This document shows positions 76-56,345 of a stretch of 64,000 bases of DNA, piece by piece. This DNA comes from a virus, in the IMG/VR virus record IMGVR_UViG_3300045988_037140, positions 11,143 through 75,142 of that record; one strand, written 5' to 3'. The notes under the pieces were generated by a model that had not been told where the DNA came from, did no database searches, and saw only the letters and a program-made list of their open reading frames with translations. The stretch's first letter is position 1. Each line of letters begins with the position of its first letter. The position numbers were made by a program, and so were the translations under genes.

Positions 76-104
76 TATTGTATAATATTTATAGAAACTG
101 AGAG
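76..104 (+). promoter_or_regulatory. phage consensus promoter (TATAAT at 81-86 followed by ATTTATAGAAA box)
   Basis: First of about 20 copies of the motif TGnTATAATATTTATAGAAAGTTAAGAAAGGA seen across the window. Confidence 0.5.
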
Positions 105-280
105 AAATGGTTGCCACACACTTAACTCTTAAAAATAAGGTATGCGTGGTGAGGTTAACGGAAGGTGTTGCAAGGTCTATTAAAGACTTAACCGAGAGAG
201 AAAAACCCCTTTTGCTGAAGAGCAAAACAAATATACTGAGTCTTGAATGTTGGCAACTTGAACGAGAGACTCGTAAATAT

Positions 281-356
281 TGTCCTGTAGCTCAGCTGGC
301 AGAGCACGCGACTGTTAATCGTGGGGTCGAGGGTTCGAACCCCTCCGGGACAGCCA
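281..356 (+). tRNA. tRNA-Asn (GTT)
   Basis: Cloverleaf by hand. Acceptor tgtcctg/cgggaca; D-arm gctc-agctggca-gagc; anticodon loop ctGTTaa; T-arm gaggg-ttcgaac-ccctc; encoded CCA. Confidence 0.8.
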
Positions 357-407
357 AAGTCGATGTTTGAAGGAATCGTCGCGACTTTAACCCTAAACCT
401 TCAGTAT

Positions 408-490
408 GCGGGATTGGCGGAATGGTAGACGCGCTAGACTTAGGATCTAGTGTCTATGGCGTAAGGGTTCGAGTCCCTTATCCCGTACCA
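408..490 (+). tRNA. tRNA-Leu (TAG), type II
   Basis: Acceptor gcgggat/atcccgt; anticodon stem ctaga/tctag; loop ctTAGga; long variable arm; T-arm aaggg-ttcgagt-ccctt; CCA. Confidence 0.8.
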
Positions 491-628
491 ATGAGGCGTT
501 AACATGGATTTTGATTGGTAAACTACCACCGGCATCCAATGCGCGGCAATGCCAAGCAGCGAAGATATGTGGCTTAGTGGACAACGCCTGTCTAAATATA
601 AGAAAGCAAAGTAACCAATCGTGAATAT

Positions 629-715
629 GCGGCTATGTTGAAATCGGTAGACAAGCAAGCTTGAGGTGCTTGTGATCGAAAGGTCGTGTGAGTTCAAATC
701 TCACTAGCCGCACCA
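629..715 (+). tRNA. tRNA-Leu (GAG), type II
   Basis: Acceptor gcggcta/tagccgc; anticodon stem caagc/gcttg; loop ttGAGgt; long variable arm; T-arm gtgag-ttcaaat-ctcac; CCA. Confidence 0.75.
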
Positions 716-906
716 ATGAGTCTAATCCGCTCAAGTCATAAGGATTGGTGTCAACCGCTCACCTTACGCAGGTTGCCGATTGTGGGTGCAAGTTTGGAAA
801 CCCTCCCTGTGTCCACGGGATCTGGATAGTCTTTTGTTGTTTTATTACTTAAATAAAATTAACCGGTATAGCTTACCGTTAGAGGAGTGACTCTCCTTAA
901 GTATTT

Positions 907-983: not shown

Positions 984-1204
984 ATAAGAGAATATTGAAA
1001 CGGTTCAGGTCTTATCGGCCGTCTAGGCAGGCGAGGTAGAGTGAGGTAAGTTGCGGTGGAAATCCCTTGAATTAGCGTAAAAAAACCTACGCCTGAAATT
1101 CTGGAAGTGGAATTTTGCGAAGTCGGAGTAGCGTAAGCGTGTGGCTGAAATATGACCACCCGCCTAGACTTTAGTATTCTCTTTATTTGAAAAATAATAA
1201 ATAT

Positions 1205-1232
1205 TATGATATAATATTTATAGAAAGTAAGA
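1205..1232 (+). promoter_or_regulatory. phage consensus promoter (TGATATAAT + ATTTATAGAAAGTAAGAAAG)
   Basis: Motif copy; the transcript would begin at or into the AAGAC-clamped ncRNA module A. Confidence 0.5.
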
Positions 1233-1325
1233 AAGACACAGTACAGCAAGTTTTTTAATGGGATAATTCTTTTCTCGCCACGAAAATGATAACTGGTTCG
1301 AGTCCAGTGCAAAAACCTGTGTCTT
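1233..1325 (+). ncRNA. AAGAC-clamped tRNA-like ncRNA module A
   Basis: A 9-bp terminal clamp aagacacag/ctgtgtctt encloses a D-region (tacagcaa...), a hairpin ttttc-tcgccac-gaaaa, a T-arm actgg-ttcgagt-ccagt and an A/U acceptor-like pairing (tttttt/aaaaa). No CCA. It lies immediately after a promoter. Confidence 0.35.
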
Positions 1326-1334
1326 GCTGAATAT

Positions 1335-1425
1335 TGCCCCGTGGTGTAATGGTTAGCACGGCGGTCTCTAAAACCGTATCCCTCTGAAGGAGTAAGTCTG
1401 GGTTCGAACCCCAGCGGGGCTGCCA
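1335..1425 (+). tRNA. amber-suppressor tRNA (anticodon CUA, reads UAG), type II-like with Gln-like determinants
   Basis: Anticodon stem gcggt/accgt with a 7-nt loop ctCTAaa (U33, A37). T-arm ctggg-ttcgaac-cccag; acceptor tgccccg/cggggct with a U1-U72 mismatch; discriminator G73; CCA. The variable arm is 20 nt (ctct-gaa-ggag hairpin); D-arm gtgt-aatggtta-gcac. Confidence 0.7.
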
Positions 1426-3422: not shown

Positions 3423-3423
3423 T

Positions 3424-4116: not shown

Positions 4117-4462
4117 GGGGGTATAAAGGTTTCGACGGGGCATTGAGAAGTTAGAACACACGGGTAGGCGACCTCCTTACGGCGCAACAAACAATTAACT
4201 GACAACAATTATTTTGATTCTCACATGGCAGCTTGAGCTTTTGCTCGCTGACCATTAACTGTATACCTCTGGTTTCTTTGTTTTCCTTCTAAAAATAAAG
4301 TGGTGGATGCGTTGTACTTATAACCGGTACGGCCCTATAGTTTAGTTAGTTTGTTCTTGACTTGTGGCTCTATTCAAAAGCTATAAATAAGGACTATCGT
4401 GTAAGAATGTTCTGATTAAGTAGATGTTTCGGACACGGGTTCGACTCCCGTTACCTCCACCA
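4117..4462 (+). ncRNA. ssrA: tmRNA (SsrA), phage-encoded
   Basis: 5' end gggggtataaaggtttcgacgggg and 3' end tttcggacacgggttcgactcccgttacctccacca match the canonical tmRNA ends (GGGG...GGUUUCGACGGGG ... UUCGGACGCGGGUUCAACUCCCG...CUCCACCA). The acceptor gggggta/tacctcc pairs. Candidate tag ORF: ...DNNYFDSHMAA followed by TGA. Confidence 0.75.
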
Positions 4463-4781: not shown

Positions 4782-5642
4782 ATGAAGATTTATAATCCAA
4801 TTAACTATTCCTATATCACTGTTGTAGAAATTCCAAAGACAGAGATTTCAAAGTTCGATATGGCGCTATGTCAACAGCCTCGTTAGACTTTGAAAGCCTA
4901 CTATGATAGTTGCGCTGTTAAGCCTTCTATCGTTTCCAATGGTGGTTTCTTCAGCATGACTGATGGTTCAACAGCCTTTAACTATACCGATGAAGGTATA
5001 ATCATTAGTTCTAATTCTCTTTACAAAGAAGGATTTGGAACTGTCAATGGAGAGTTAAAGTACGGTGTAATTGGTCAAGAGAAGTTTGAGGACTTCGTAA
5101 GTGGCTATCCAGTCTTAATTAAGGCGGGCGCCGCAGTTCCTATTACTATTGCTTCCGAGATTAACTACAAGGCTAGAAGAACTATTCTAGCTTATAATAA
5201 AGAAAATATCTTTATTGTAGCTATTGAATCTCCGGGCATGAACTTCTCACAAATGCAATCTTTCTTGCGGACTCTCAAGGTTGACTACGCTATTAACCTT
5301 GATGGAGGCGGAAGTACCAAGATATTGCATGATGGCAAGTGTATCACAAAGGCGCTTGCTAATCGTCCTGTTGATAATATAATGGCTGTTTATCTAAAGC
5401 CAAAAGTTATTTACAGAGTATAGCTTGGTGCATTTAGCAAGAAAGCTAATGCAGATGCATTTTTAGCTAAAATCAAGGCTCTTCCTGATACTATCAATGC
5501 AGGATATAAGAATGCTTATGTTCGCAAGGTTGGTAGTTATTGGAAGGTTCAAATTGGTGCGTTCTCTGTGAAAGCTAACGCAACACGAGTTGTAAATGAT
5601 CTAAAGAGTAAGGGCTATAATGCCTTCATTACGACAACTTGA
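4782..5642 (+). CDS. phosphodiester-glycosidase-like (NAGPA/DUF2233-type, ...INLDGGGS...) protein with a C-terminal SPOR domain; two in-frame TAG codons
   Basis: ATG at 4782 with RBS gaggaaggtga. In-frame TAGs at 4884 and 5421 join the ORF-track pieces 4692-4886 and 4890-5423 to a C-terminal extension ending at TGA 5640-5642. The extension contains two SPOR-type repeats, RV*LGAFS and KVQIGAFS. Confidence 0.55.
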
Positions 5643-5657
5643 TTTTCTAAAAATATT

Positions 5658-5685
5658 TTGTTATAATATTTATAGAAGATAAGAG
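5658..5685 (+). promoter_or_regulatory. phage consensus promoter
   Basis: tgttataat + atttatagaagataagag motif immediately upstream of ncRNA module B. Confidence 0.5.
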
Positions 5686-5791
5686 AAGACGCTTGCCGCA
5701 ACCACTACTATTGTAATAGTCAAAAGGTTAAGACATTTCTCTACAAAAGAAACAATTTGGGTTCGATTCCCAATTACACAAAAGGCGTCTT
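5686..5791 (+). ncRNA. AAGAC-clamped tRNA-like ncRNA module B
   Basis: Clamp aagacgc/gcgtctt. Interior: hairpin tttct-ctacaaa-agaaa (anticodon-arm-like), T-arm ttggg-ttcgatt-cccaa, and a 5-bp A/U acceptor-like pairing tgtaa/ttaca. No CCA. Confidence 0.35.
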
Positions 5792-5833
5792 GTTATGGTC
5801 AGCCCGTAAGACCTTAAATGGCGGGACACCTAT

Positions 5834-5947: not shown

Positions 5948-6100
5948 ATGTTATATAAAGACCTATACAGCAAATCTTTCTTTACTAATAGAAGAAGATA
6001 TAATGATTAGCAAGTCATTGCTGCCAGACGTCGAGATAGCTCTTTAGAACGAAGACAGGCGAGAGCTATGGAGTCATAAGTCTAAGTTTTCGTGGGTCTT
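5948..6100 (+). ncRNA. AAGAC-clamped ncRNA module E (no obvious T-arm)
   Basis: 5' aagacctatacagcaaa shares the acagcaa box with modules A, D and F. The 3' end gggtctt pairs with the 5' end. The interior has stems but no TPsiC-like loop. Confidence 0.25.
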
Positions 6101-6103
6101 GAA

Positions 6104-6150
6104 ATGTTATAATATTTTTGTTATAATATTTATAGAAAGTTAAGAAAGGA
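6104..6150 (+). promoter_or_regulatory. tandem phage consensus promoters (two TGTTATAAT boxes) + leader/RBS
   Basis: tgttataat(6106), tgttataat(6118), atttatagaaagttaagaaaggaag, then ATG at 6161. Confidence 0.5.
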
Positions 6151-6160: not shown

Positions 6161-6346
6161 ATGAAGAAAATTGATATGGGTTGCTACTACTTTTCCGACA
6201 AGGGTTTGGTTCGTACAGTTGCCAGAGCAACAGATATGGAGACGAAGAAGTCGATGATTATGTTCGTTAACATTGAATCTGGCGGGTGTGCAAGTCAGCC
6301 TCTTTTAATTTCTGAGGAGAAGTTTGCGGCGACTTACATCAGGTAA
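6161..6346 (+). CDS. hypothetical protein
   Basis: 61-aa ORF directly behind the promoter and leader. Confidence 0.4.
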   Translation: MKKIDMGCYYFSDKGLVRTVARATDMETKKSMIMFVNIESGGCASQPLLISEEKFAATYIR

Positions 6347-14766: not shown

Positions 14767-14901
14767 AAGACCTTAACAGCAATAAAAATGGACTGTAAAT
14801 CCGTCGCTTATGCTACGCAGGTTCGAATCCTGCCCTCCCCACCACTATATGGCGGAGGTAGGGAAGTGGTTAAACCCAACGGAACCGAAAAGAAAAGGTC
14901 T
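14767..14901 (+). ncRNA. AAGAC-clamped ncRNA module C with a circularly permuted tRNA(Tyr-like) domain, immediately upstream of the Ro60-like vWA gene
   Basis: Clamp aagacctt/aaggtct. Interior order: anticodon-like loop ctGTAaa + tccgt; variable arm; T-arm gcagg-ttcgaat-cctgc; acceptor 3' strand cctcccc; A-CCA; loop ctatat; acceptor 5' strand gcggagg; U8-A9; D-arm ggg-aagtggttaaa-ccc; then acgga, which pairs back to tccgt. Confidence 0.45.
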
Positions 14902-14958: not shown

Positions 14959-16449
14959 ATGAATACTTTTATGAACGCTATGAAGCAAGATACCAACTTT
15001 ACCTTGACTGAGAATGGCGCAGTTACCCATAAGTCCACTCTGAATGGTCTTATGGATTTGTTCGCGCTCGGCGGAGCATACCGCACTCGTTCTGATGCAG
15101 ATTGTATCACTTTGTTCAAGGCGGCCTTTGACGAGGATGAAGCTCATGCTTTAAAGTGCCTGTTCTATCTGCGTGATGTGCGCGGCGGCCAGGGTGAGCG
15201 TCGTTTCTTCCGCGTTGTGACCAACTGGCTTGCTTCTCACGAGACTGAAGCCATGCGTCGTAATCTCCAGTTTGTGCCTGAGTACGGTCGCTGGGACGAC
15301 CTGTATATCTTCGTTGGCACTCCTCTGGAGAAGGACGCTTTCAATTTGATGCGCCATCAGCTGGCTTTGGATGTCTCTTGCAAGACTCCTTCTCTGCTCG
15401 CTAAGTGGCTGAAGTCTGAGAATACCAGCTCTAAGGAATCTCGCCATCTGGCGGTGATTACTCGCAATCATTTTGGCATGACCGCAAAACAGTACCGCAA
15501 GACTCTCTCTACTCTGCGTGAGCGTATCCGCATCGTTGAGCGCCTCATGTCTGAGAATCGGTGGGACGAGATTGAGTTTGACAAGATTCCTTCTCGTGCC
15601 GGCGTAATTTATCGCAATGCGTTTGCTCGCCGCGATATGATTAAGGCTAAGTATGAGGCTTTCGCTAAGGATACTGAGACTAAGGTTAATGCCAGTGCTC
15701 TCTATCCTCACGACATTGCACATCGTGCCTTTGAAGCCAATCGTAAGGGATTGGGCGATCCTGATCGTCTGATGCTTCAGAAGTATTGGGAGAACCTTCC
15801 TAACTACTACGGTGATAATATCGAGAATGGCATTGCTGTTGTCGATGTTTCTGGCTCTATGACCGGTGTTCCTATGGAGGCTGCGGTCTCTATGGGTGCG
15901 TATATCGCAGATAAGGCGCACGGTCCTTTTGCCAACCACTTCATTACCTTCTCTGGTCATCCTGAGCTGGTGAAGTTCGAGGGGGCAGACATTACCGATA
16001 AGTTGTGCCGTTGCATTGGTGCAGATTGGGGTATGAACACTAATATCGAAGCTGTCTTCGATATGCTGCTCAACACCGCGATGAAGCAAAGTGTAAAGCC
16101 TGAGGATATGCCTACTCGCGTCTACATCTTCTCTGATATGGAGTTTGACAAGTGTGTTACCAGTAACTCTACTGATCGGGGTGGCTGGGGGTATGGTATG
16201 CACAGCGATGCCATCCAGACTCTCTTTGAGGCTATGAAGGCTAAGTGGGCACGCTACGGTTACAAGATGCCTAGCTGCATCTTCTGGAACCTGAACGCCC
16301 GCAATAACAACATTCCCGCAATCGGTGACGGCTTTAGCTATGTAAGTGGTTTTAGCCCTGTTATGATTCAGCAGATTCTCAGCGGCAAGGACGGACTCGA
16401 TCTGATTCTTGAGAAGCTGGACAGCGAGCGTTATGCTCAGATTCACTAA
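14959..16449 (+). CDS. vWA-domain protein with Ro60/TROVE-like architecture (helical N-terminal part + C-terminal vWA MIDAS DVSGSM)
   Basis: ATG 14959 after aaaaggaga. MIDAS motif IAVVDVSGSMTG, later FSGHP and FSDMEFD. The N-terminal ~300 aa look helical. The following genes are an AAA+ MoxR ATPase and an unknown protein. Confidence 0.5.
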   Translation: MNTFMNAMKQDTNFTLTENGAVTHKSTLNGLMDLFALGGAYRTRSDADCITLFKAAFDEDEAHALKCLFYLRDVRGGQGERRFFRVVTNWLASHETEAMRRNLQFVPEYGRWDDLYIFVGTPLEKDAFNLMRHQLALDVSCKTPSLLAKWLKSENTSSKESRHLAVITRNHFGMTAKQYRKTLSTLRERIRIVERLMSENRWDEIEFDKIPSRAGVIYRNAFARRDMIKAKYEAFAKDTETKVNASALYPHDIAHRAFEANRKGLGDPDRLMLQKYWENLPNYYGDNIENGIAVVDVSGSMTGVPMEAAVSMGAYIADKAHGPFANHFITFSGHPELVKFEGADITDKLCRCIGADWGMNTNIEAVFDMLLNTAMKQSVKPEDMPTRVYIFSDMEFDKCVTSNSTDRGGWGYGMHSDAIQTLFEAMKAKWARYGYKMPSCIFWNLNARNNNIPAIGDGFSYVSGFSPVMIQQILSGKDGLDLILEKLDSERYAQIH

Positions 16450-16454
16450 ACCCT

Positions 16455-16500
16455 CTCAAACGGGGAAATGGCAAGAAAATTGCCATTTCCCCGTCTTTTC
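16455..16500 (+). terminator. rho-independent terminator
   Basis: ggggaaatggcaa-gaaaa-ttgccatttcccc followed by gtcttttc. Confidence 0.5.
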
Positions 16501-16521
16501 TATTTATTGAAAAATAATTTA

Positions 16522-16560
16522 ATTTATGATATAATAAATATATAAGGTAAGGAAAGGAAG
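16522..16560 (+). promoter_or_regulatory. phage consensus promoter + leader
   Basis: tttatgatataataaatatataaggtaaggaaaggaag. Confidence 0.45.
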
Positions 16561-16568
16561 TTACATAG

Positions 16569-17465: not shown

Positions 17466-17466
17466 T

Positions 17467-18649: not shown

Positions 18650-18690
18650 AAGGGGAGCTATCTATATAGCTCCCCTTTATTTTTTTGAAA
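18650..18690 (+). terminator. rho-independent terminator
   Basis: aaggggagctat-ctat-atagctcccctt followed by tatttttttt. Confidence 0.55.
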
Positions 18691-18691
18691 A

Positions 18692-18730
18692 ATTATAATA
18701 TAATATATATAGAAAGTTAAGAAAGAGGGT
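18692..18730 (+). promoter_or_regulatory. phage consensus promoter + leader
   Basis: aattataatataatatatatagaaagttaagaaagaggg. Confidence 0.45.
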
Positions 18731-22517: not shown

Positions 22518-22607
22518 TCTGCCCCTTTCATTATTTTCTCTATTGTTATCTAAAAAATGATAATGAGTGTATATCAGCTTTTGGCCAAAATAAATACCTA
22601 TTTGAAA

Positions 22608-22656
22608 AATGTTATAAAATATATTATAATATATATAGAAAGTTAAGGAAGAAAGA
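22608..22656 (+). promoter_or_regulatory. phage consensus promoter + leader
   Basis: tgttataaaatatattataatatatatagaaagttaaggaag. Confidence 0.45.
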
Positions 22657-33430: not shown

Positions 33431-33664
33431 GTGGTTTTATTGGTAAATATTTTAATTGGAGTTCTCCTTATCACAGTAGGTGCCACCTTACTCAATAGTA
33501 TTAGTGAAATTATAAGTGCTATTACAGAACTTATTAAAGCTAATATAAATGAAAGGATTGTTCGTCACAATGTTACGATTAATAAACTTAGTGAAGGAGA
33601 AACTCAATCTAGTGCAATCGGATTTGCCACTACATACGAAGAGGAAGATGAACATGAACTATGA
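33431..33664 (+). CDS. small membrane protein
   Basis: GTG start; 77 aa. Confidence 0.3.
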   Translation: MVLLVNILIGVLLITVGATLLNSISEIISAITELIKANINERIVRHNVTINKLSEGETQSSAIGFATTYEEEDEHEL

Positions 33665-36716: not shown

Positions 36717-36718
36717 TA

Positions 36719-36762
36719 AAGGCTTAGTAGACTTAATAGTCTACTAAGCCTTTTCTTATTTT
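36719..36762 (+). terminator. rho-independent terminator
   Basis: ggcttagtagact-taat-agtctactaagcc followed by ttttctt. Confidence 0.55.
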
Positions 36763-36853
36763 AAGCTTGATTTTTCATAAAATATATGGTATTATATATT
36801 CAGAAATAAAAAAGGAGAACTTAAAAATAAATGAAGTATTTGAGGTATAGCGA

Positions 36854-41636: not shown

Positions 41637-41687
41637 GAGAAAGAATGGGTATACCCATTCTTTCTCTTAGTTGACTTTTCTTTTTAA

Positions 41688-41722
41688 TTATTATAATATA
41701 TTTATATAAGAAGAAAGGATTT
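41688..41722 (+). promoter_or_regulatory. phage consensus promoter + leader
   Basis: aattattataatatatttatataagaagaaagga. Confidence 0.4.
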
Positions 41723-41979: not shown

Positions 41980-43191
41980 ATGAGTTTTGATAAAAGTAAG
42001 ATACATGAGTTGTATCCTGAAGCAGAAAACTTAATGATTGAGCCAATGCTTATTTGGAAGTTGCCTGCGGGAAAGGAATCTATGCTCTCTGAAGTATGTT
42101 CTAATGGGGAATATTTCCTTGAGGAGAAAATTGATGGAGCATTTTATCAGTTTGTAAAAACTGAAAACCATTCTTATCTTTTTGGTCGCACAGTAAGTAA
42201 ACTATCTGGTATCCTTACAGAAAAAAGTGACAATGTACCTCACTTAAAAGAGGCATTGAACTGTCTTCCCGCAGGAACAATTCTCATTGGAGAAATTTAT
42301 GTTCCCGGTGGTACATCGAAAGATACTGTAAGTATTATGGGATGTTTACCTGCTCTTGCTATCAAGAGACAAGAGAAGGAACCAATCCATTATTATGTGC
42401 ATGATATTATTGCATATGATACAGTCAATCTTATTGACTCACCTGCGGATTTGCGCTATAAAATTCTTGCGGCAATCTGGAAGAAACATGATCTCAACCA
42501 GTATAGTTTCTTAAGACTTGCCACTCGCGTCGATGAAGATATGGAGGCTGAAATCTCTCGTATCTTAAAATCTGGCGGCGAAGGCGCGGTCTTAAAGAAG
42601 AAAGATTATCCATATACTCCCGGTAAAAGACCTGCATGGTCTACAATCAAAGTTAAACAGATGGATTCTATTGATTTAATTTGCACTGGATTTTGTGATG
42701 CTACAAAGGAGTATACCGGTAAAGAGTTGGCCTCTTGGGAATATTGGGAAGAGACAGAACCCTCATTCTATGATTGCTTTGAGGAAGATCATTGCTTTGG
42801 CGGATGGTGTAATCCTCGCTTGGTTGAGGGTAATCTATATGCGAAGTATCTCAATAATCCTCCAGTTAATGGTTTTAGCTGGTTGGATGAAACGGATAGA
42901 TTTTATACTCCTGTAACTAAACCTTATTTTCTTGGCTGGAAAACCGCAATTAGGATTGGTGCGTACAATGATAAGGGTGAACTTGTTGACTTAGGTACAG
43001 TTAGCTCTGGATTAACTGATGATAACAAAAGAGAAATGACTGAGAATCCCGATTTGTGGCTTGGTCATGTTGTAGCTCTTGATTGTATGCAAATTGATAA
43101 GAAAGAGCATACTTTGCGACATCCTGTCTTCAAGTGTAAAAGAGACGACAAGGATGCAAAAGATTGCGTAATATCAGAAATTTTTTGTTGA
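41980..43191 (+). CDS. ATP-dependent DNA ligase (motif I EEKIDGAF)
   Basis: KxDG adenylation motif plus downstream ligase motifs (ILIGEIYV..., GEGAVLKK). Confidence 0.65.
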   Translation: MSFDKSKIHELYPEAENLMIEPMLIWKLPAGKESMLSEVCSNGEYFLEEKIDGAFYQFVKTENHSYLFGRTVSKLSGILTEKSDNVPHLKEALNCLPAGTILIGEIYVPGGTSKDTVSIMGCLPALAIKRQEKEPIHYYVHDIIAYDTVNLIDSPADLRYKILAAIWKKHDLNQYSFLRLATRVDEDMEAEISRILKSGGEGAVLKKKDYPYTPGKRPAWSTIKVKQMDSIDLICTGFCDATKEYTGKELASWEYWEETEPSFYDCFEEDHCFGGWCNPRLVEGNLYAKYLNNPPVNGFSWLDETDRFYTPVTKPYFLGWKTAIRIGAYNDKGELVDLGTVSSGLTDDNKREMTENPDLWLGHVVALDCMQIDKKEHTLRHPVFKCKRDDKDAKDCVISEIFC

Positions 43192-43250
43192 CTTAAAAAA
43201 TATTTTCTGATATAATATATATGTAATTCAGAAAAGCAATAGTAAAAGGA
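43188..43250 (+). promoter_or_regulatory. sigma70-type promoter TTGACT-17-TGATATAAT + leader
   Basis: ttgact at 43188 and tgatataat at 43208 with a 17-nt spacer; followed by atatatgtaattcag leader. Confidence 0.55.
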
Positions 43251-45877: not shown

Positions 45878-46392
45878 TTTCTGCTATTGTTGCGGTAGAC
45901 GAGAATTGGGGGATTGGCTATCAAGGTCAACTATTAGAACATATCCCAGCTGATCTAAAACATTTTAAAGAGCTGACCCAATATAATGTTGTAGTAATGG
46001 GGCGTAATACTTGGGAGAGTCTCCCTAAAAAGGATTCTCTACCAAGGCTTCCAGACCGTATCAATATTATTGTTTCTAACTCAATGGTTTCAAATGGGGT
46101 GATTTCTATTCTTGGAAATCTAACTGTTGCAATGCCATTAGAGGGAACTCTTGATTACATTAAGGCTTGTGATATGGATATTTTTGTTATTGGTGGAGGA
46201 CAGATTTACAATGCTCTTCTCCCCTATTGCGATAGAGTTTATGTAACAAAAATCTATGCAAGTCATGATAATATTGATACCTTTTTTCCTAATCTCGATG
46301 AATCAAAAGAATGGAATGCTATTGAGGAAGACTCAATGGCCTCATATAACGACATCAAATATCAATTTTGGCGGTATGATAGGGTCAGTTGA
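45874..46392 (+). CDS. folA: dihydrofolate reductase
   Basis: MISAIVAVDENWGIG... NVVVMGRNTWESLP... VIGGGQIY. Confidence 0.7.
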   Translation: MISAIVAVDENWGIGYQGQLLEHIPADLKHFKELTQYNVVVMGRNTWESLPKKDSLPRLPDRINIIVSNSMVSNGVISILGNLTVAMPLEGTLDYIKACDMDIFVIGGGQIYNALLPYCDRVYVTKIYASHDNIDTFFPNLDESKEWNAIEEDSMASYNDIKYQFWRYDRVS

Positions 46393-46399
46393 TTTTTCT

Positions 46400-46440
46400 T
46401 TAATTTTATGTTATTATATATGTATAAAAGGTAAGGAAAT
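46400..46440 (+). promoter_or_regulatory. phage consensus promoter + leader
   Basis: ttatgttattatatatgtataaaaggtaaggaaatgg. Confidence 0.4.
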
Positions 46441-46447: not shown

Positions 46448-46828
46448 ATGAATAATAAGTACAAAGCATTTACTGATTACTTCGATTGGCTAGTGCAGAA
46501 TTGCAAGGAGCCAGTTGTACTTCCCGATGAAGTACAAGATGTCTATAATCTCCTCCTTGCGCAGCAAGGTATGGAGAAACCTATGTTCACAGAAAGTGGA
46601 CTTTCAATCCTTGAGTATTTACAAACTTGTGATGCTACAAGTGTGAAAGCAAAAGATATTGCGGCTGGAATGGTTATTTCATCTCGCAAGGTATCTGGAG
46701 CTATTCGTAAACTCGTATCTGATGGGTTTGTAGATAAATATGGCCAGAATCCTGTCATTTATAGCTTGACGGAAAAGGGCAAAAATTTTGATATTAACGC
46801 TTATAAGGAGAATTTGAACAATGAGTAA
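46448..46828 (+). CDS. hypothetical (winged-helix-like) protein
   Basis: 126 aa. Confidence 0.35.
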   Translation: MNNKYKAFTDYFDWLVQNCKEPVVLPDEVQDVYNLLLAQQGMEKPMFTESGLSILEYLQTCDATSVKAKDIAAGMVISSRKVSGAIRKLVSDGFVDKYGQNPVIYSLTEKGKNFDINAYKENLNNE

Positions 46829-47850: not shown

Positions 47851-48825
47851 ATGAGTTTGCTTGACCTTAAACCACATGAAGTATCAAGAGATTTAAGAGG
47901 ATATTCAGTTTTATTCTATGGCACTCCTAAGTCTGGTAAGACTACGATTGCCAGTAAATTTCCCGGCGCGCTTCTTCTCGCTTTTGAGAAAGGTTATAAC
48001 GCGTTGCCTGGTGTATATGCCCAGCCTATCAATAGCTGGGGCGAATTTAAGAAGCTCTTTACAGAGCTGAAAACTCCAGAAGTACAGGAAAAGTTCCAGA
48101 CCATTGTTATTGACACCGCAGATATTGCTTATAGCTATTGCGAGAAGTATGTCTGCAATCGTGAAGGTGTTGATACCATCGCGGATCTACCCTATGGTAA
48201 GGGTTATTCCATGGTTGGTACCGAATTCGACGAGGCGATCCGCAAGATTCTTCAGTTGAATTATGGTCTGATTTTGATTTCTCACTCTACTGACAAGGTG
48301 TTTAAGGACGAAGAAGGTAATGAGTATAACCAAATCGTTCCTACTCTTGATAAGAGAGGTCGTCTGATTTGCGAGAGAACTTGCGACATCATCGGTTATT
48401 CTACTTCCGTAAATACTGACGAGGGCGTTCAGACTCGTCTCTTTATGAGAGGCACTCCTCGTTATGTAGCTGGTTCTCGTTTCAAGTATATCCCGAACTC
48501 TATTGAGTTTACCTATGATAACTTAGTAAATGCAATTGCGGAAGCTATCGACAAGCAGGCAGAAGAGACTGGTGGTAAGTTTATTTCTAATGAAGCTACT
48601 CAGGTAGTTACAGAAGATGTAACTTATGATTTTGATCGACTAAATGCTCGTTTCCAAGAATTGGTTGGCGAATTGATGTCTGCTAATCAGTCTAATGCCG
48701 GTAAGATTACCGCTATTGTTGATAAGTATCTTGGTAGGGGAAAGAAAGTCGGAGAATGTACTCCTGAGCAAGCTGAACAAATCGATCTTATTGTTCATGA
48801 CTTGGAGCTTCTAATTAAGGGCTAA
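47851..48825 (+). CDS. Sak4-like RecA-fold ATPase (AAA_24; GTPKSGKTT)
   Basis: Walker A VLFYGTPKSGKTTIA; Walker B VIDTAD. Confidence 0.55.
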   Translation: MSLLDLKPHEVSRDLRGYSVLFYGTPKSGKTTIASKFPGALLLAFEKGYNALPGVYAQPINSWGEFKKLFTELKTPEVQEKFQTIVIDTADIAYSYCEKYVCNREGVDTIADLPYGKGYSMVGTEFDEAIRKILQLNYGLILISHSTDKVFKDEEGNEYNQIVPTLDKRGRLICERTCDIIGYSTSVNTDEGVQTRLFMRGTPRYVAGSRFKYIPNSIEFTYDNLVNAIAEAIDKQAEETGGKFISNEATQVVTEDVTYDFDRLNARFQELVGELMSANQSNAGKITAIVDKYLGRGKKVGECTPEQAEQIDLIVHDLELLIKG

Positions 48826-48872
48826 GATTAAAGGAGAGTATTCTTGTATGGATACTCTCCTTTTGATTTTTT
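48826..48872 (+). terminator. rho-independent terminator
   Basis: aaggagagtattc-ttgt-atggatactctcctttt followed by gatttttt. Confidence 0.55.
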
Positions 48873-48874
48873 AT

Positions 48875-48915
48875 TATAATTATGGTATAATAGTTATAGA
48901 AAATGTAAAGAAAGG
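48875..48915 (+). promoter_or_regulatory. phage consensus promoter + leader
   Basis: ttataattatggtataatagttatagaaaatgtaaagaaaggag. Confidence 0.45.
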
Positions 48916-54006: not shown

Positions 54007-54082
54007 AATTATGAGATTATAAATCGTCAGGAATATTATTTTTAATGATTGCGCGACCTCTTACTAAAGGAGGAACAATCAA

Positions 54083-54847
54083 ATGAGTCGTTTTATTAAA
54101 GTTATCACAAGTTTAATCATTATATTGTCTTTATGCGGATGTAGCTATGGCCTAGCGGTCACTACTCAAGCCTATTCCGTGCCGTATAACGAAACTGTTA
54201 GTTATACTCTTGATGATATGGATACATTGGTTGAGCTTATTGCGGAACAAATCTCGAATATGAACGCCGCACATCAAATGGCTGAAGCTGCTAGATAGCT
54301 AGGCTATAGTGAAGACCATGACGTCATTGTATTAGCAAAACAAGAACACGCTGATGCAAATGCTTTGAGAATGAAATATCAAAGCATATATGATCAACTC
54401 ATGGAACATTGGCATCAAAAGGAAGAAGAGTACCCAACAGCTACTTATATATGGACCTACTTCAAAGATCTGGGCTACAGTAACCAAGTTTGCGCTGGCA
54501 TTCTTGGTAATATAATGGCTGAAACTGGAGGTAACACATTAGACATTCAAGCCACGATTTCTGGTAACGGATATTATGGTATATGTCAATGGAATAAAGC
54601 CTACTCAAATGTATGGGGAGCCTCGTTAGAAGAGCAATGCGACTATCTGCGAGATACTATTGAGTACGAGTTCGATACATTCGGTTATGTTTATAAGAGA
54701 CATTTTGATTACAATAGTTTCTTGAATTTAACCGACATTAAGAGCGCTGCTCTAGCATTTGCTAAATGCTATGAGAGATGCGGTTCTGGGAGCTATTATA
54801 CGCGACAGCAAAATGCTATTGCTGCATATAATTACTTCATAAGTTAA
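54083..54847 (+). CDS. lipoprotein with a phage-lysozyme2-type peptidoglycan-hydrolase domain; one in-frame TAG
   Basis: Signal peptide + lipobox LSLCGC. TAG 54296 joins ORF-track pieces 54083-54298 and 54365-54847 in one frame. VCAGILGNIMAETGGN is paralogous to the endolysin N-terminal domain. Confidence 0.55.
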
Positions 54848-54935
54848 AATAAAGAATCGACGAACTGGCCGGAACCTAGACGGCCGTTCGCCGAAACTAA
54901 AATAGGGTTTACTATTTTTGGAAAGGAAAAGTGGT

Positions 54936-55145
54936 ATGAATATTTTATATGTAGATATGACTAGTATGAATGTTTCAGAAGTAGCTTCGCTGCATGAACA
55001 ACTCTCCTATAAGCTAAATGGAGATTTAATTACACTACCGATGAATACTAGACTGCTCTATGACGTGAGATTGGAAGATTTGTATGATTTAAAAGCTAAA
55101 GTAGATGCAGCGATTAAGGAGAAGGAAAATGGAACTAACACGTAA
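54936..55145 (+). CDS. hypothetical protein
   Basis: ATG after ggaaaggaaaag. Confidence 0.35.
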   Translation: MNILYVDMTSMNVSEVASLHEQLSYKLNGDLITLPMNTRLLYDVRLEDLYDLKAKVDAAIKEKENGTNT

Positions 55146-56289
55146 ACAAGAGGAAGGATTGAGAATCGCAGTAGAGCGATATCACCAAAATGAACCCTAT
55201 ACCGTGATTGCTGGATACGCTGGTACTGGTAAATCAACACTTATTAAATTCATTATTTCTGCTCTAGATATCAACCCTGAACGAGTGGCCTATATTGCTT
55301 ATACTGGCAAAGCCGCACAGGTGCTAAGAAATAAAGGTTGTCCAACTGCGATGACTGCGCACCGACTGCTCTATAAATCCTTACAGCGAGCTGATGGCAC
55401 CTTCATTCATATTCCAAGAGAGTCACTCAACTCTGATTGCGACATTGTCGTGGTAGATGAGGTATCTATGCTGCCAAAACAGATGTGGGAGCTATTACTA
55501 TCGCATAATGTTTATGTAATTGCTTGCGGCGACCCAGGTCAGTTACCTCCTATTGGCGAGGAGAATGGTATCCTCGATCATCCGCATATCTTCCTTGACG
55601 AAATTATGCGGCAGGCCGCAGAAAGCGAAATTATCCGCCTGTCCGCAGATATTCGAGCTGGTAAGATCATCAAACCTTACAAGGGTTCTGAAATCAACGT
55701 AGTTCGACAGAGAGACCTTTGTGATGGTATGTTCACATGGGCGGATCAAATCCTCTGTGGCAAGAATATCACTCGTCATACTATGAATACTTATTATCGT
55801 AATATGCGATATGGCGAAAATATTCCTGCTCCTATTGTTGGAGATAAGGTTATTTGTCTTAAGAATAACTGGGATAAGATTACTGCCACAGGTGATGCTC
55901 TTGTTAATGGAACCATCGGCACAATCGAAGAGATTGCTACTTACCCTAATCCATGGCTTAATCCCATGTGCATCATTGATTTCGCACCAGAGACCATTGA
56001 TGAAACCGATCCTCGTGATCAGGTATTCCATGAACTCTTGATGGACTATAAGCTTATCACCACAAAAGAAGCAACTGTAAACAAGGAAAACTTCCGAATG
56101 TTTCCTAAGCAGTTGCGACCAGAGCAATTTGATTATGGTTACTGCATTACCGTTCATAAGAGTCAAGGTAGTGAGTATGATAAAGTATTAGTGCTTGAAG
56201 AGGTGCTTAAAAGAGCAGACCATGCAAGATGGCTATACACGGCTGTAACAAGGGCTTCGCAGAAATTAACCTTGGTACTAAAAGATTGA
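55129..56289 (+). CDS. SF1 DNA helicase (Dda/RecD-like)
   Basis: GYAGTGKST, DEVSM, GDPGQLPP, TVHKSQGSE, TAVTRA motifs. Confidence 0.7.
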   Translation: MELTRKQEEGLRIAVERYHQNEPYTVIAGYAGTGKSTLIKFIISALDINPERVAYIAYTGKAAQVLRNKGCPTAMTAHRLLYKSLQRADGTFIHIPRESLNSDCDIVVVDEVSMLPKQMWELLLSHNVYVIACGDPGQLPPIGEENGILDHPHIFLDEIMRQAAESEIIRLSADIRAGKIIKPYKGSEINVVRQRDLCDGMFTWADQILCGKNITRHTMNTYYRNMRYGENIPAPIVGDKVICLKNNWDKITATGDALVNGTIGTIEEIATYPNPWLNPMCIIDFAPETIDETDPRDQVFHELLMDYKLITTKEATVNKENFRMFPKQLRPEQFDYGYCITVHKSQGSEYDKVLVLEEVLKRADHARWLYTAVTRASQKLTLVLKD

Positions 56290-56304
56290 TAACTTGCTTT
56301 TTGT

Positions 56305-56345
56305 ATTTAATTATGCTATAATGTTTATATAAAAGGTAAAGGAGA
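56305..56345 (+). promoter_or_regulatory. phage consensus promoter + leader
   Basis: ttatgctataatgtttatataaaaggtaaaggagac. Confidence 0.45.

What the first reader, a model, noticed from the sequence alone, without database searches (positions are those of the whole stretch)
76..56345. About 20 copies of a phage-specific promoter/leader: TGnTATAAT followed by ATTTATAGAAAGTTAAGAAAGGA
The motif recurs before almost every transcription unit. An extended -10 (often duplicated) is directly followed by a conserved 20-nt box. That box doubles as the 5' leader and RBS (aaggag) for protein genes and as the 5' clamp (AAGAC) for ncRNA modules. Copies near 76, 1205, 5658, 6104, 14160, 16522, 18692, 22608, 25412, 27924, 29322, 36778, 41688, 43188, 46400, 48875, 56305, 12610 and 32860. 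One copy (43188) has a perfect TTGACT-17-TATAAT. Conservation of the initial transcribed region suggests recognition by a phage factor (sigma-like or anti-terminator) or a shared 5'-UTR structure.
Basis: seen in the sequence. Interest (0 to 1): 0.5.

Follow-up and report, generated by a model that had tools for sequence, protein, structure and literature searches.

The report
Repeated phage early promoter-leader cassettes
A large gut phage starts about twenty of its tRNA, RNA-repair and DNA-replication transcription units with nearly the same 50-base cassette (a textbook Gram-positive housekeeping promoter fused to a fixed start region and a short ribosome-binding leader), which is a real and widely shared motif but an ordinary kind of phage early promoter.

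Summary
Twenty sites, all on the + strand and all between genes, fit TTGAww-17 bp (AT-only)-TATAAT. Seventeen of them also carry the downstream box ATwTATAkAAAGTtAAGaAAGGA. Markov shuffles never approach their scores.

The core is a canonical Gram-positive sigma-A promoter: -35 TTGA, an exact 17-bp spacer, a TRTG-like -16 region and TATAAT. Nothing in it calls for a phage sigma factor.

The box has two parts. The first is a start-site and initially-transcribed part, conserved as strongly as the -10 and kept even in front of tRNAs. The second is an extended Shine-Dalgarno part, kept only in front of proteins. The leaders are 15-29 nt and unstructured.

Ten cassettes directly follow a terminator hairpin whose T-run runs into the -35.

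The same cassette recurs many times in dozens of related uncultivated gut and rumen phage contigs. A variant occurs in cultured Enterococcus phage H1, only in its replication block. The box is absent from the next ~23 kb, which includes the opposite-strand block.

Best reading: host-RNA-polymerase early/middle promoter-leader cassettes, the Gram-positive counterpart of T4-type PeSLs and T5 early promoters. A new member of a known kind, of modest interest. No transcription start data exist.

The parts
58..109 (+). Promoter-box cassette P81 (-35 TTGATT, 17-bp spacer, TATAAT at 81, box ATTTATAGAAACTGAGAGAAA). It leads into a ~190-nt non-coding leader and then tRNA-Asn at 281.
   Evidence: Leave-one-out score 46.7 (core 27.7, box 19.0). 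The SD half is degenerate (duplex -6.6 kcal/mol). In relative L086, homology with the window stops exactly after the box, at window position 97.
1187..1238 (+). P1210 (TTGAAA-17-TGaTATAAT, box ATTTATAGAAAGTAAGAAAGAC). The last bases of the box run into the AAGACACAG 5' clamp of a tRNA-like module (3' clamp CTGTGTCTT at 1317-1325). tRNA(CTA) at 1335 and the tRNA array follow.
   Evidence: Leave-one-out score 52.1. Clamp covariation is shown.
5639..5690 (+). P5662 (TTGATT-17-TGtTATAAT, box ATTTATAGAAGATAAGAGAAGAC). It leads into a clamp (AAGACGC...GCGTCTTG at 5787) that encloses a tRNA-like gene at 5709-5782, followed by tRNA-Pro.
   Evidence: Leave-one-out score 50.2.
6099..6150 (+). P6122, an exact copy of the full box (ATTTATAGAAAGTTAAGAAAGGA). 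A second TATAAT lies in the spacer. It leads to a 61-aa ORF at 6161 and then tRNA-Val.
   Evidence: Leave-one-out score 48.1. The 27-nt leader is unstructured.
12526..12577 (+). It lies in tandem, 79 bp upstream of P12628, and directly follows the terminator at 12491-12520.
   Evidence: Leave-one-out score 43.1.
12605..12656 (+). P12628 (TTGAAA-17-TATAAT, box ATATATAGTAAATGAGAAAAGGAG). It leads to a 110-aa ORF at 12667.
   Evidence: Leave-one-out score 49.4.
14145..14196 (+). P14168 (TTGCAA-17-TGaTATAAT, box ATTTATATAAGGTAAGGGAAG). It leads into a ~300-nt structured non-coding leader, then tRNA-Leu at 14484, tRNA-Cys at 14679, and the DUF2828/DUF7788 gene at 14959.
   Evidence: Leave-one-out score 46.5. 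The fold shows a hairpin at the 5' end of the leader.
16507..16558 (+). P16530 (TTGAAA-17-TGaTATAAT, box AAATATATAAGGTAAGGAAAGGAAG). It follows the terminator at 16460-16494 and leads to the DUF7192 gene at 16569 and the AAA_5 ATPase gene at 17467.
   Evidence: Leave-one-out score 41.4.
18676..18727 (+). P18699 (TATAAT, box ATATATAGAAAGTTAAGAAAGAGG). The 17-bp position holds TTTATT, part of the T-run of the terminator at 18650-18677. It leads to ORF 18740 and an operon running to 21934.
   Evidence: Leave-one-out score 50.2.
22602..22653 (+). P22625 (TTGAAA-17-TATAAT, box ATATATAGAAAGTTAAGGAAGAAAG). It leads to the Pyr_excise gene at 22658 and the RNA ligase gene at 23551.
   Evidence: Leave-one-out score 50.3.
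25406..25457 (+). P25429 (TATAAT, box ATATGTATAAGAGAGGGGAG). It follows the terminator at 25375-25407 and leads to ORF 25462 and the metallophosphatase genes.
   Evidence: Leave-one-out score 41.4.
27908..27959 (+). P27931 (TTGATT-17-TATAAT, box ATATGTATAAGAAAGGGGAG). It follows the terminator at 27882-27916 and leads to the Thg1-like gene.
   Evidence: Leave-one-out score 45.3.
29310..29361 (+). P29333, an exact copy of the full box. It follows the terminator at 29281-29315, whose T-run contains the -35 TTGATT. It leads to ORF 29373 and an operon running to the SPFH gene at 31256.
   Evidence: Leave-one-out score 56.1, the highest of all sites.
32868..32919 (+). P32891, a core promoter only (TTGATT-17-TGcTATCAT) without the box. 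It lies downstream of the terminator at 32758-32787, upstream of short ORFs and the PIN/PhoH gene at 33570.
   Evidence: Leave-one-out core score 25.4, box score 1.9.
36767..36818 (+). P36790, a core promoter only (TTGATT-17-TGgTATTAT). It follows the terminator at 36718-36753 and leads to RNase H at 36854, GyrB and GyrA.
   Evidence: Leave-one-out core score 32.8, box score 2.3.
41671..41722 (+). P41694 (TTGACT; the -10 region reads TTATAATAT with a 2-nt register ambiguity; box ATTTATATAAGAAGAAAGGA). It follows the terminator at 41643-41660 and leads to ORF 41732 and the DNA ligase gene at 41980.
   Evidence: Leave-one-out score 31.6 (box 14.6).
43188..43239 (+). P43211, a core promoter only (TTGACT-17-TGaTATAAT). 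Only ATATATGTAA of the box is present. It overlaps the stop codon of the ligase gene.
   Evidence: Leave-one-out score 14.9 (box -3.9).
46389..46440 (+). P46412 (TTGATT-17-TGtTATTAT, box ATATGTATAAAAGGTAAGGAAATGG). It leads to a 126-aa gene at 46448 with weak, sub-threshold winged-helix matches.
   Evidence: Leave-one-out score 45.7. The orthologous promoter is kept in the 82-97% relatives.
48863..48914 (+). P48886 (TTGATT-17-TGgTATAAT, box AGTTATAGAAAATGTAAAGAAAGGAG). It follows the terminator at 48830-48863 and leads to ORF 48922 and the DnaB gene at 49455.
   Evidence: Leave-one-out score 48.4. Terminator, -35, -10 and box are all retained in relatives of 72-99% identity, with compensatory changes in the terminator stem.
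56294..56345 (+). P56317 (TTGCTT-17-TGcTATAAT, box GTTTATATAAAAGGTAAAGGAG). It leads to the DnaE-type polymerase gene at 56352. It is the last copy: none follows up to the window end or for ~15 kb beyond.
   Evidence: Leave-one-out score 37.1. A promoter is kept at this position upstream of dnaE in relatives from 54 to 100% amino-acid identity. No further hits were found downstream.

Best explanation
These are the early/middle promoters of a large phage of a Gram-positive (Bacillota-type) gut host. They are read by the unmodified host sigma-A RNA polymerase, and each is fused to a standardised start region and a very short leader.

Anatomy, numbered from the first T of the -10 as position 0:
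- -35 TTGA(T/A)(T/A) at -23.
- A 17-bp spacer that is almost free of G and C.
- T-A-T-(G) at -5 to -2, a TRTG-type -16 element.
- TATAAT at 0 to 5.
- ATwTAT at 6-11, the discriminator.
- A(G/T)AA at 12-15. The predicted +1 is the A at position 12, preceded by T.
- A pyrimidine-poor run, AGT(T)AAGAAAGGA.

Inferred function, not shown:
1. The AT-rich discriminator and the T(-1)A(+1) step fix the start site. The purine-rich initially transcribed region favours efficient initiation and promoter escape.
2. In protein-leading copies, AAGAAAGGA(G) pairs with the last 8-10 nt of 16S rRNA and sits 4-10 nt before the start codon. The box is therefore the entire unstructured 5' UTR of 15-29 nt. A ribosome bound this close to the 5' end may also protect the RNA from 5' exonuclease.
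3. In RNA-leading copies the GGA core is lost, but the start region and purine run stay.

With the terminator hairpins that precede ten copies, the cassettes divide the tRNA, RNA-repair and replication part of the genome into short, insulated, strongly expressed units. The opposite-strand block downstream, presumably late genes, uses something else.
For: Shown by sequence:
- 20 of 20 sites lie on the coding strand, in intergenic positions, with an exact 17-bp spacer. TTG is at the -35 in 18 of 20, T at -5 and -3 in 20 of 20, and TG in 11 of 20.
- Information content at positions 6-15 equals that of the -10. Flanking positions (-1, -14, beyond -24 and beyond +27) carry none. This pattern points to position-specific constraint rather than recent copying.
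- 14 sites lead into an SD plus start codon. Predicted leaders are 15-29 nt (two longer), and folding z-scores are about 0.
- Anti-SD duplexes are -8 to -15.6 kcal/mol for most protein-leading copies (-5.9 at the boxless P43211) and -4 to -7 for RNA-leading copies.
- The leader never occurs at the 53 internal ribosome-binding sites inspected.
- Ten copies sit directly behind terminator hairpins.
- Downstream genes are tRNAs, RNA ligase, Thg1-like, RNase H, gyrase, DNA ligase, DnaB and DnaE, which are typical early/middle functions. No sigma factor was found.

Conservation in relatives:
- 107 of 114 distinct IMG/VR contexts of the exact 19-mer have TTG at exactly 17 bp.
- Dozens of lineages share the per-locus consensus TTGATTTTTtatAAAAAATATGaTATAATATaTATAgAAAgTtAAgaAAgg.
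- The dnaE and 48922 promoters are kept at orthologous positions down to 54% and 72% identity. The sequence turns over within the motif, and the terminator stem shows compensatory changes.
- Cultured Enterococcus phage H1 has ten such promoters (TATAAT-taattataaagttaaataaggagg and variants), all in its + strand replication block and none in the structural block.
- No box promoter occurs from 56.3 kb to about 79 kb (equivalent coordinates), which includes about 13 kb of the opposite-strand block.

From the literature:
- The initially transcribed sequence can change promoter output greatly and is best treated as part of the promoter (PMC5961368).
- SD-like polypurine elements near the 5' end stabilise Bacillus mRNAs (Hue et al. 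1995 and Agaisse & Lereclus 1996, as listed in PMC3997798).
Against: - There is no transcription start, RNA-seq or in vitro transcription data for this phage or any relative, so +1 and the use of host polymerase are inferred.
- The host is unknown.
- Ordinary sigma-A promoters do not conserve the discriminator and start region as strongly as the -10. Even the spacer has a family-wide consensus. This is more constraint than the polymerase is known to require and leaves room for an additional reader of the sequence.
- Several promoter-linked SDs (AAAGGAAG) are not the strongest possible cores. Internal genes use AAGGAGG. The leader is therefore not simply an optimised ribosome-binding site.
Confidence: 0.75

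Rival explanations
1. The box is a recognition tag for a dedicated trans-acting factor, phage-encoded or host. It could act as DNA (an operator over -10/+1 used to shut off or boost all early units together) or as the common 5' end of every early RNA (the target of an RNA-binding protein or of a RegB-like endoribonuclease).
For: - Positions 6-15 are as conserved as the -10, and the spacer has a family-wide consensus. That is more than sigma-A is known to need.
- TATAA-TAT-TTATA is a 5-bp inverted repeat across -10/+1, and relatives carry a perfect 16-bp palindrome, ATTTTTTATAAAAAAT, in the spacer.
- The purine run is kept in RNA-leading copies that have no need of an SD.
- Different lineages carry coordinated variants. 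Phage H1 has taattataaagttaaataagg where the window has atttatagaaagttaagaaagg.
Against: - No candidate factor was identified. Thirty window proteins gave no sigma factor and only one weak, sub-threshold winged-helix match.
- The same consensus is shared by lineages whose DnaE is only about 55-70% identical. That fits a highly conserved reader such as host polymerase or ribosome better than a fast-evolving phage protein.
- AT-only palindromes arise easily in such sequence.
Confidence: 0.12
2. The cassettes are kept alike mainly because they serve as homologous linkers for recombination. Like PeSLs in T4-type phages, they would shuffle gene and RNA modules between genomes, with promoter activity as a by-product.
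For: - The composite layout of terminator, promoter and SD is the same as described for PeSLs (PMC2839356, PMC4122927).
- Relative L086 loses homology with the window exactly after the box of P81, and a different RNA module follows up to tRNA-Asn.
- Relatives L259 and L261 are identical from the -35 of the dnaE promoter onward but differ upstream.
- The tRNA region is highly plastic between close relatives.
Against: - Of about eight breakpoints between the window and its close relatives, only one or two lie at a cassette.
- The 830-bp insertion next to P56317 is a free-standing HNH-like mobile gene with in-frame TAG codons, which explains that junction by itself.
- Information content is position-specific rather than uniform.
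- Orthologous promoters diverge in sequence while staying within the motif. Selection on function predicts this; homogenisation by recombination does not.
Confidence: 0.08
3. The conserved TATAGAAAG start region belongs to a promoter for a phage-encoded RNA polymerase or alternative sigma factor, and the TTGA/TATAAT match is incidental.
For: - TATAGAAG resembles the start region of SP6-type single-subunit polymerase promoters (my recollection, not tested here).
- The DnaE relatives include the SPbeta group, whose members encode their own polymerase, YonO (established knowledge).
Against: - The -35 lies at exactly 17 bp in 20 of 20 window sites and in 94% of IMG/VR contexts. The TRTG -16 element is present and the -10 is nearly invariant. 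These are the defining features of sigma-A promoters and would not all be incidental.
- No RNA polymerase or sigma gene was found among the window proteins scanned.
- The motif is missing from the presumed late block, where a phage polymerase would be expected to act.
Confidence: 0.03
4. It is a chance pattern of AT-rich intergenic DNA.
For: - The motif is AT-rich.
- About half of the exact 19-mer hits in bacterial genome contigs lack a -35 and look like chance matches in AT-rich genomes.
Against: - Shuffles gave 0 matches.
- The strand bias is 20 to 0.
- The register to the -35 and to start codons is fixed.
- The cassettes are conserved at orthologous positions.
Confidence: 0.01

Closest known systems
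PeSLs (promoter-early stem-loops), the composite terminator/promoter/SD cassettes of T4-type myoviruses (Arbiol et al. 2010, PMC2839356; Comeau et al. 2014, PMC4122927)
   Same: - Many copies per genome of a conserved cassette of about 50-100 bp.
- The cassette consists of a stem-loop terminator, a strong host-sigma consensus promoter, an SD and a start codon.
- The cassettes lie in the early part of a large lytic-type phage genome and insulate small transcription units.
   Different: - The phage lineage and host type differ: a Gram-positive -16/TRTG promoter and AT-only spacers.
- The stem-loops here are ordinary intrinsic terminators upstream of the -35, not G4/C4 stems inside the promoter.
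- The start region and leader are far more conserved here.
- Cassettes also head tRNA and ncRNA units and core replication genes, not mainly ORFans.
- Recombination at the cassettes is not demonstrated: one or two of about eight junctions.
Early promoters of coliphage T5 (PN25 and others), which have a conserved, purine-rich initially transcribed region
   Same: - Very strong host-polymerase promoters of a large virulent phage.
- Conservation extends past the -10 into the transcribed region, which runs straight into the SD. The N25 transcribed sequence, as I recall it, is AUAAAUUUGAGAGAGGAGUU.
- The transcribed sequence is known to modulate output (PMC12464699, PMC5961368).
   Different: - T5 works with E. 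coli sigma-70, not Bacillota sigma-A.
- The actual sequences are unrelated.
- Conservation here is tighter and is shared by many phage lineages.
- There are no functional data here.
T4 early promoters, a phage-specific extended consensus read by host sigma-70 polymerase (review PMC2988021)
   Same: A phage's early promoters form a recognisable family with conserved positions beyond the host consensus, while still using the host holoenzyme.
   Different: - T4 early promoters deviate from the host consensus and are favoured through ADP-ribosylation of the polymerase (established knowledge).
- Here the core equals the host-type consensus, and the extra conservation lies downstream of the -10.
5' mRNA stabilisers of Bacillus: the phage SP82 polypurine sequence (Hue, Cohen & Bechhofer 1995) and STAB-SD (Agaisse & Lereclus 1996), both cited in PMC3997798
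   Same: An SD-like polypurine run lies within about 10-17 nt of the predicted 5' end. It is retained in weakened form even where no ORF follows. One of the precedents comes from a phage early RNA.
   Different: Stabilisation is untested here. In RNA-leading copies the pairing to 16S rRNA drops to -4 to -7 kcal/mol.
Promoters of cultured Enterococcus phage H1 (OP534061) and its relatives EF1/EF5/VRE9, the closest cultured phages by DnaE (40% identity)
   Same: - Ten TTGAyw-17-TATAAT promoters are followed by (t/a)aaTTATAaAGTTAAAtAAGGAGG.
- All ten lie in the + strand replication block.
- The genome layout matches: a replication block followed by a convergent structural block.
   Different: - The box is a lineage-specific variant.
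- The record carries no promoter annotation, and I found no published description of the motif.

Membership tests
Sigma-A / sigma-70 housekeeping promoter (Gram-positive type) | -35 hexamer resembling TTGACA | tested here: met
   TTG is present in 18 of 20 sites and TTGA in 17 of 20. The two exceptions read TTTATT inside a terminator T-run.
Sigma-A / sigma-70 housekeeping promoter (Gram-positive type) | Spacer of 17 +/- 1 bp between the hexamers | tested here: met
   The spacer is exactly 17 bp in 20 of 20 window sites and in 107 of 114 IMG/VR contexts.
Sigma-A / sigma-70 housekeeping promoter (Gram-positive type) | -10 hexamer TATAAT | tested here: met
   TATAAT occurs in 15 of 20 sites, TATTAT in 3, TATCAT in 1, and 1 site has an ambiguous register.
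Sigma-A / sigma-70 housekeeping promoter (Gram-positive type) | -16 region TRTG / extended -10 TG (typical of Gram-positive promoters) | tested here: met
   T at -5 and -3 in 20 of 20 sites, A at -4 in 16 of 20, G at -2 in 11 of 20.
Sigma-A / sigma-70 housekeeping promoter (Gram-positive type) | Transcription starts 6-8 nt downstream of the -10 and is carried out by host holoenzyme | not testable with these tools
   No RNA 5'-end data exist. The sequence offers T(-1)A(+1) at the expected distance in 19 of 20 sites.
PeSL-type composite promoter/terminator cassette | Multi-copy conserved cassette with a host-consensus early promoter, an SD and a start codon | tested here: met
   There are 20 copies, and 14 of them have an SD and start codon within about 40 nt.
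PeSL-type composite promoter/terminator cassette | Associated stem-loop that terminates upstream transcription | tested here: met
   Ten of 20 copies have an adjacent G+C-containing hairpin plus T-run, usually fused to the -35. The stem covaries in relatives.
PeSL-type composite promoter/terminator cassette | Insertion/deletion/replacement junctions between close relatives lie at the cassettes; mini-circles form | tested here: inconclusive
   There is one clean junction at P81 and one at the -35 edge of P56317, which is explained by an HNH-like mobile gene. The other junctions lie elsewhere. Mini-circles cannot be tested with these tools.
PeSL-type composite promoter/terminator cassette | Sequence homology to the T4-type PeSLs / occurrence in T4-like myoviruses | tested here: not met
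   The phage group is different: the closest cultured relatives by DnaE are Enterococcus phages and SPbeta, at 40% identity. This is an analogue, not a member.
Phage-specific sigma or phage RNA polymerase promoter (for example SPO1 middle/late, T7-like) | Non-host -35/-10 elements, or a single contiguous about 20-bp promoter; a phage sigma or polymerase gene | tested here: not met
   The host-type elements are canonical. No sigma or polymerase domains were found in 30 window proteins.
Lambda Q-type promoter-proximal antitermination site | -10-like pause-inducing element in the initially transcribed region, and read-through of downstream terminators | tested here: not met
   The transcribed consensus AGAAAGTTAAGAAAGGA holds no TAnnnT-type element. 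Each unit is followed by a new promoter after its terminator.
Structured 5' UTR / known RNA family | Conserved secondary structure or a match to an Rfam model | tested here: not met
   mRNA leaders have MFE values of 0 to -4.8 kcal/mol, with z-scores within about +/-1 in 12 of 14 copies. No Rfam match covers any box.
5' polypurine / STAB-SD mRNA stabiliser | SD-like polypurine run close to the 5' end that pairs with the 16S 3' tail | tested here: met
   AAGAAAGGA lies at predicted +10 to +18. Duplex energies are -8 to -15.6 kcal/mol for most protein-leading copies (-5.9 at the boxless P43211) and weaker (-4 to -7) in RNA-leading copies. The B. subtilis 16S tail was used as a proxy.
5' polypurine / STAB-SD mRNA stabiliser | Increases the half-life of downstream RNA | not testable with these tools
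   This requires RNA decay measurements.

The most novel reading that the evidence does not exclude
The start region and leader are conserved beyond what polymerase and ribosome need. They could be a common address label read by a dedicated factor of this large, mostly uncultivated clade of gut Bacillota phages, several of which appear to recode TAG. Examples would be a phage protein that switches all early units off or on together at the DNA level, or an endoribonuclease or RNA-binding protein that recognises the shared 5' end of every early RNA. The cassette may also act as a portable linker for module exchange.
Probability: 0.12. Interest if true: 0.6.

Novelty: new member of a known kind. 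Interest (0 to 1): 0.3.

Why it matters
- Annotation: the cassette is a ready-made marker for the early/replication region and the transcription-unit boundaries of a widespread family of uncultivated gut and rumen phages.
- Host prediction: the cassette points to a Bacillota-type host.
- Engineering: it offers a compact, apparently very strong promoter plus 5' UTR part for gut Firmicutes.
- Biology: it is a clear natural case in which the discriminator, start site and initially transcribed sequence are conserved as tightly as the -10. This supports the view that these positions belong to the promoter proper.

None of this changes current understanding of phage transcription.

Tried and rejected
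1. Shared RNA structure in the leader. Folding of 14 leaders gave energies of 0 to -4.8 kcal/mol, with z-scores within about +/-1 in 12 of the 14. Rejected.
2. A known RNA family over the box. Rfam at gathering and at permissive thresholds found only tRNAs, the tmRNA and sub-threshold noise.
3. A close annotated relative. A megablast of 24 kb against 50,697 phage records gave only a 51-nt hit in thyA.
4. Promoter-mediated recombination at P56317. The 830-bp difference in L243 and L259 turned out to be an HNH-like mobile gene with in-frame TAG codons. Other junctions are mostly not at cassettes.
5. Whether the host's own genes use the box. Of 118 distinct contexts of the 19-mer in bacterial genome contigs, about half are chance hits without a -35. 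The rest sit in MAG contigs that carry several more cassettes and phage-like small ORFs. I could not show use by bona fide chromosomal genes, and the host stays unidentified.
6. A phage sigma factor or regulator in the window. Thirty proteins were scanned against Pfam. The only hint is a sub-threshold winged-helix match in the 126-aa product of 46448-46828.
7. A literature search for the motif as a text string found nothing relevant.
8. Whether the DUF2828/DUF7788 protein (14959-16449) is Ro60-like. A sequence search against PDB chains gave no hit. No structure prediction was run because it does not bear on the promoter question.

Full report
**What the window is.** The 64-kb window carries 32-33 tRNA genes and a tmRNA in its first 15 kb. 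These are followed by genes for:
- RNA repair and processing: RNA ligase, a Thg1-like enzyme, a RlaP-like nucleotidyltransferase, metallophosphatases, and a DUF2828/DUF7788 - DUF7192 - AAA_5 trio.
- DNA replication and nucleotide metabolism: RNase H, GyrB/GyrA, DNA ligase, thymidylate synthase, DnaB, RecJ-like, RecD-like, a DnaE-type polymerase, and NrdD.

All genes lie on the + strand. No annotated phage is close at the DNA level. By DnaE, the nearest cultured phages are Enterococcus phages H1/EF1/VRE9 and the SPbeta group, at about 40% identity. Many uncultivated IMG/VR contigs of 75-150 kb from human and animal gut samples are 72-100% identical.

**Checking the observation.**
- The exact 23-mer occurs twice, and twice more with three mismatches, against 0.01 expected.
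- The 17-mer spanning the -10 and the start of the box occurs 12 times with up to three mismatches, against 0.97 expected.
- An iterated weight matrix finds 20 sites on the + strand, including one new site at 12549. The single - strand hit is the palindromic shadow of site 18699. Shuffles give no hits.
- Leave-one-out scoring shows that 17 sites carry both the core promoter and the downstream box. Three sites (32891, 36790, 43211) have only the core.
- The other 102 TAnAAT hexamers on the + strand have a mean box score of -26.

TGn is present in 11 of 20 sites rather than all. The 'perfect' copy at 43188 is the one without the box. All copies also have a -35 element.

**Anatomy.** Positions are numbered from the first T of the -10 as 0.
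- T-T-G-A at -23 to -20: 20, 20, 18 and 17 of 20 sites.
- A spacer of exactly 17 bp in all 20 sites, with about 4% G+C.
- T-A-T-G at -5 to -2: 20, 16, 20 and 11 of 20. This is the TRTG '-16 region' typical of Gram-positive sigma-A promoters (established knowledge).
- TATAAT at 0 to 5.
- A-T-w-T-A-T-A-k-A-A at 6-15, each position present in 16-19 of 20 sites except the two-state positions 8 and 13. This stretch is as informative as the -10.
- Positions 20-26 contain essentially no pyrimidine.
- Positions -1, -14, everything upstream of -24 and everything beyond +27 carry no information.

With the -10 at -12 to -7, the invariant A at position 12 is the predicted +1. It is preceded by T, which gives the preferred pyrimidine/purine start step.

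**Relation to genes.** Fourteen sites run into an SD and a start codon, so the box is essentially the whole 5' UTR. Predicted leaders are 15-29 nt, with two longer ones.
- The leaders are unstructured.
- Their AAGAAAGGA(G) pairs with the 3' tail of Bacillus-type 16S rRNA at -8 to -15.6 kcal/mol in all but the boxless P43211 (-5.9).
- Five sites lead into RNA. Four of them are P81, P1210, P5662 and P14168, which head tRNA or ncRNA units. The fifth is P12549, which lies in tandem with P12628.
- In these five, the start region and purine run are kept but the GGA core is lost, and pairing falls to -4 to -7 kcal/mol.
- The leader sequence is never found at the 53 internal ribosome-binding sites, which use plain AAGGAG/GGAGG.
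- Ten cassettes directly follow an intrinsic-terminator hairpin whose T-run contains or abuts the -35.

**The 'clamp'.** The module has the form AAGAC-N3-5-(Y)ACAGCAA ... N3-5-GTCTTG.
- It occurs after P1210, and in a CCGCAA variant after P5662. It also occurs far from any promoter, near 2520, 5953, 7826 and 14762.
- Across the window and related loci, 40 of 76 distinct copies have an exactly complementary 3' strand within 400 nt, with 19 different variable stems. The control, in which the variable parts are swapped between copies, gives a mean of 7.
- Only 26 of the 76 copies are promoter-proximal. The box therefore does not 'double' as the clamp. The two elements abut at two window sites.

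**Conservation elsewhere.**
In 107 of 114 distinct contexts, TTG lies exactly 17 bp upstream.
- In bacterial genome contigs, about half of the hits are chance matches without a -35. The rest are MAG contigs, mostly Clostridia and Bacilli, that hold several more cassettes and look like binned phage DNA.
- In those loci, core-promoter matches split into two classes, with or without the box.
- Dozens of lineages share nearly the same per-locus consensus, spacer included.
- In an unbiased sample of 47 loci chosen only for a DnaE homologue of 53-73% identity, core promoters are 125 to 18 in favour of the gene strand. They retain a weaker A-T-A-w-a-T-A-k-A-A.
- A promoter is kept directly upstream of dnaE from 54 to 100% identity.
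- The terminator/promoter/leader cassette upstream of gene 48922 is kept from 72 to 99% identity. Its terminator stem shows compensatory changes, and substitutions in the box stay within the motif.
- Cultured Enterococcus phage H1 has ten such promoters with its own variant of the box, all in its replication block.

**Distribution along the genome.**
- A close relative (L025) shows seven more cassettes in the 5.7 kb upstream of the window start.
- Downstream of P56317 there is none to the window end or in the next ~15 kb of close relatives. Genes there switch to the opposite strand about 2-3 kb past the window end.
- The family therefore belongs to the early, tRNA and replication part of the genome.

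**Interpretation.** The simplest mechanism that fits all of this is a family of strong host sigma-A promoters, early or middle class, with a standardised start region and leader.
- Shown: the sequence anatomy, the positional relation to genes and terminators, the lack of leader structure, the SD complementarity, and conservation across lineages.
- Inferred: use by host polymerase, the start site, efficient escape, and any RNA-stabilising effect.
- The literature supports the plausibility of the inferred steps. The initially transcribed sequence strongly modulates promoter output (PMC5961368, PMC12464699). SD-like polypurine runs near the 5' end stabilise Bacillus RNAs, and one precedent comes from a phage early transcript (references in PMC3997798).

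The position-specific information profile and the turnover of orthologous promoters within the motif argue for selection on function rather than recent copying.

**Rivals.**
- A dedicated factor reading the box, as DNA or as the RNA 5' end, would explain why conservation exceeds known polymerase needs. No candidate was found, and the consensus is shared by lineages too divergent for a fast-evolving phage protein to be the obvious reader.
- A PeSL-like recombination role is suggested by the identical architecture (PMC2839356, PMC4122927) and by one clean junction at P81. Most junctions lie elsewhere, and the one at P56317 is explained by a mobile HNH-like gene.
- A phage-polymerase promoter and chance are effectively excluded.

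**Comparison and verdict.**
- What it works like: T4-type PeSLs, T5 early promoters and T4 early promoters. These are multi-copy, extended-consensus early promoters that exploit the host polymerase.
- Membership: it meets every sequence-level criterion of a Gram-positive sigma-A promoter. It is an analogue of PeSLs, not a homologue.
- I found no published description of this motif.

It is a new member of a known kind: real, well defined and useful for annotation and as a genetic part, but not surprising to a phage transcription specialist. Interest 0.3.

Noticed in passing
window 1233-1326, 2513-2635, 5688-5792, 5953-6101, 7826-7946, 14762-14900; also GTCTTG at 240, 2975, 6690; many related loci (e.g. 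L011, L019, L024, L056, L077, L128, L163, L175, L209, L227, L232, L235): A repeated RNA module: AAGAC-N3-5-(Y)ACAGCAA ... insert ... N3-5-GTCTTG. Its ends are complementary and covary: 40 of 76 distinct copies are complementary, against a control mean of 7. The insert is a tRNA, a T-arm-like element (GGTTCGAGTCC) or other RNA. The copy at 7840-7946 gives a weak, sub-threshold match over the full length of the Rfam YrlA (Y RNA-like) model: 24.4 bits against a gathering score of 69. The modules may be processing stems or Y-RNA-like tRNA mimics.
   Followed up: partly
window 14959-18426: A gene trio lies directly after the last clamp module: DUF2828/DUF7788 (496 aa), DUF7192 (298 aa) and an AAA_5 MoxR-like ATPase (319 aa). 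RNA ligase, RlaP-like and Thg1-like genes are nearby. This looks like an RNA-repair island. A sequence search of the DUF2828 protein against PDB gave no Ro60 hit, and no structure was predicted.
   Followed up: partly
window 1335-1425; L323 1-10000; L243 9189-9900; L259 9193-9900; L255: A suppressor-type tRNA with anticodon CTA and a long variable arm is present. In relatives, ORFs in the opposite-strand block beyond the window become longer when TAG is read as sense. A mobile HNH-like gene next to dnaE has several in-frame TAGs. The 73-78% relatives show in-frame TAGs even in replication genes. Within the window only 5 of 64 called genes end in TAG. Together this suggests TAG recoding in this phage group.
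   Followed up: partly
window 8450-8523 and 7017-7137: ARAGORN calls a tRNA with a 4-base anticodon (taaa) at 8450-8523; Rfam scores it at 42.5 bits as a tRNA. Rfam also finds a 121-nt tRNA match at 7017-7137 (46.5 bits) that ARAGORN does not call. That one may be a tRNA with an insertion or intron.
   Followed up: no
window 4117-4462: A phage-encoded tmRNA (Rfam 100 bits) with predicted tag peptide DNNYFDSHMAA lies inside the tRNA array.
   Followed up: no
related loci, e.g. L044, L056, L101, L180, L227, L231 (promoter spacers): [quoted passage not shown] I have no explanation. It could reflect DNA bending, a weak hairpin as in some PeSL classes, or a binding site.
   Followed up: no
window 47921-47926: Relatives L245, L254 and L257 carry an insertion of about 745 bp at this point, inside or at the start of the AAA_24 gene (47851-48825). 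It may be a mobile element or an intron.
   Followed up: no
about 2-3 kb beyond the window end (L273 20000-23894; L323): Gene orientation switches to the opposite strand shortly after the window. It has no box-type promoter on either strand.
   Followed up: partly
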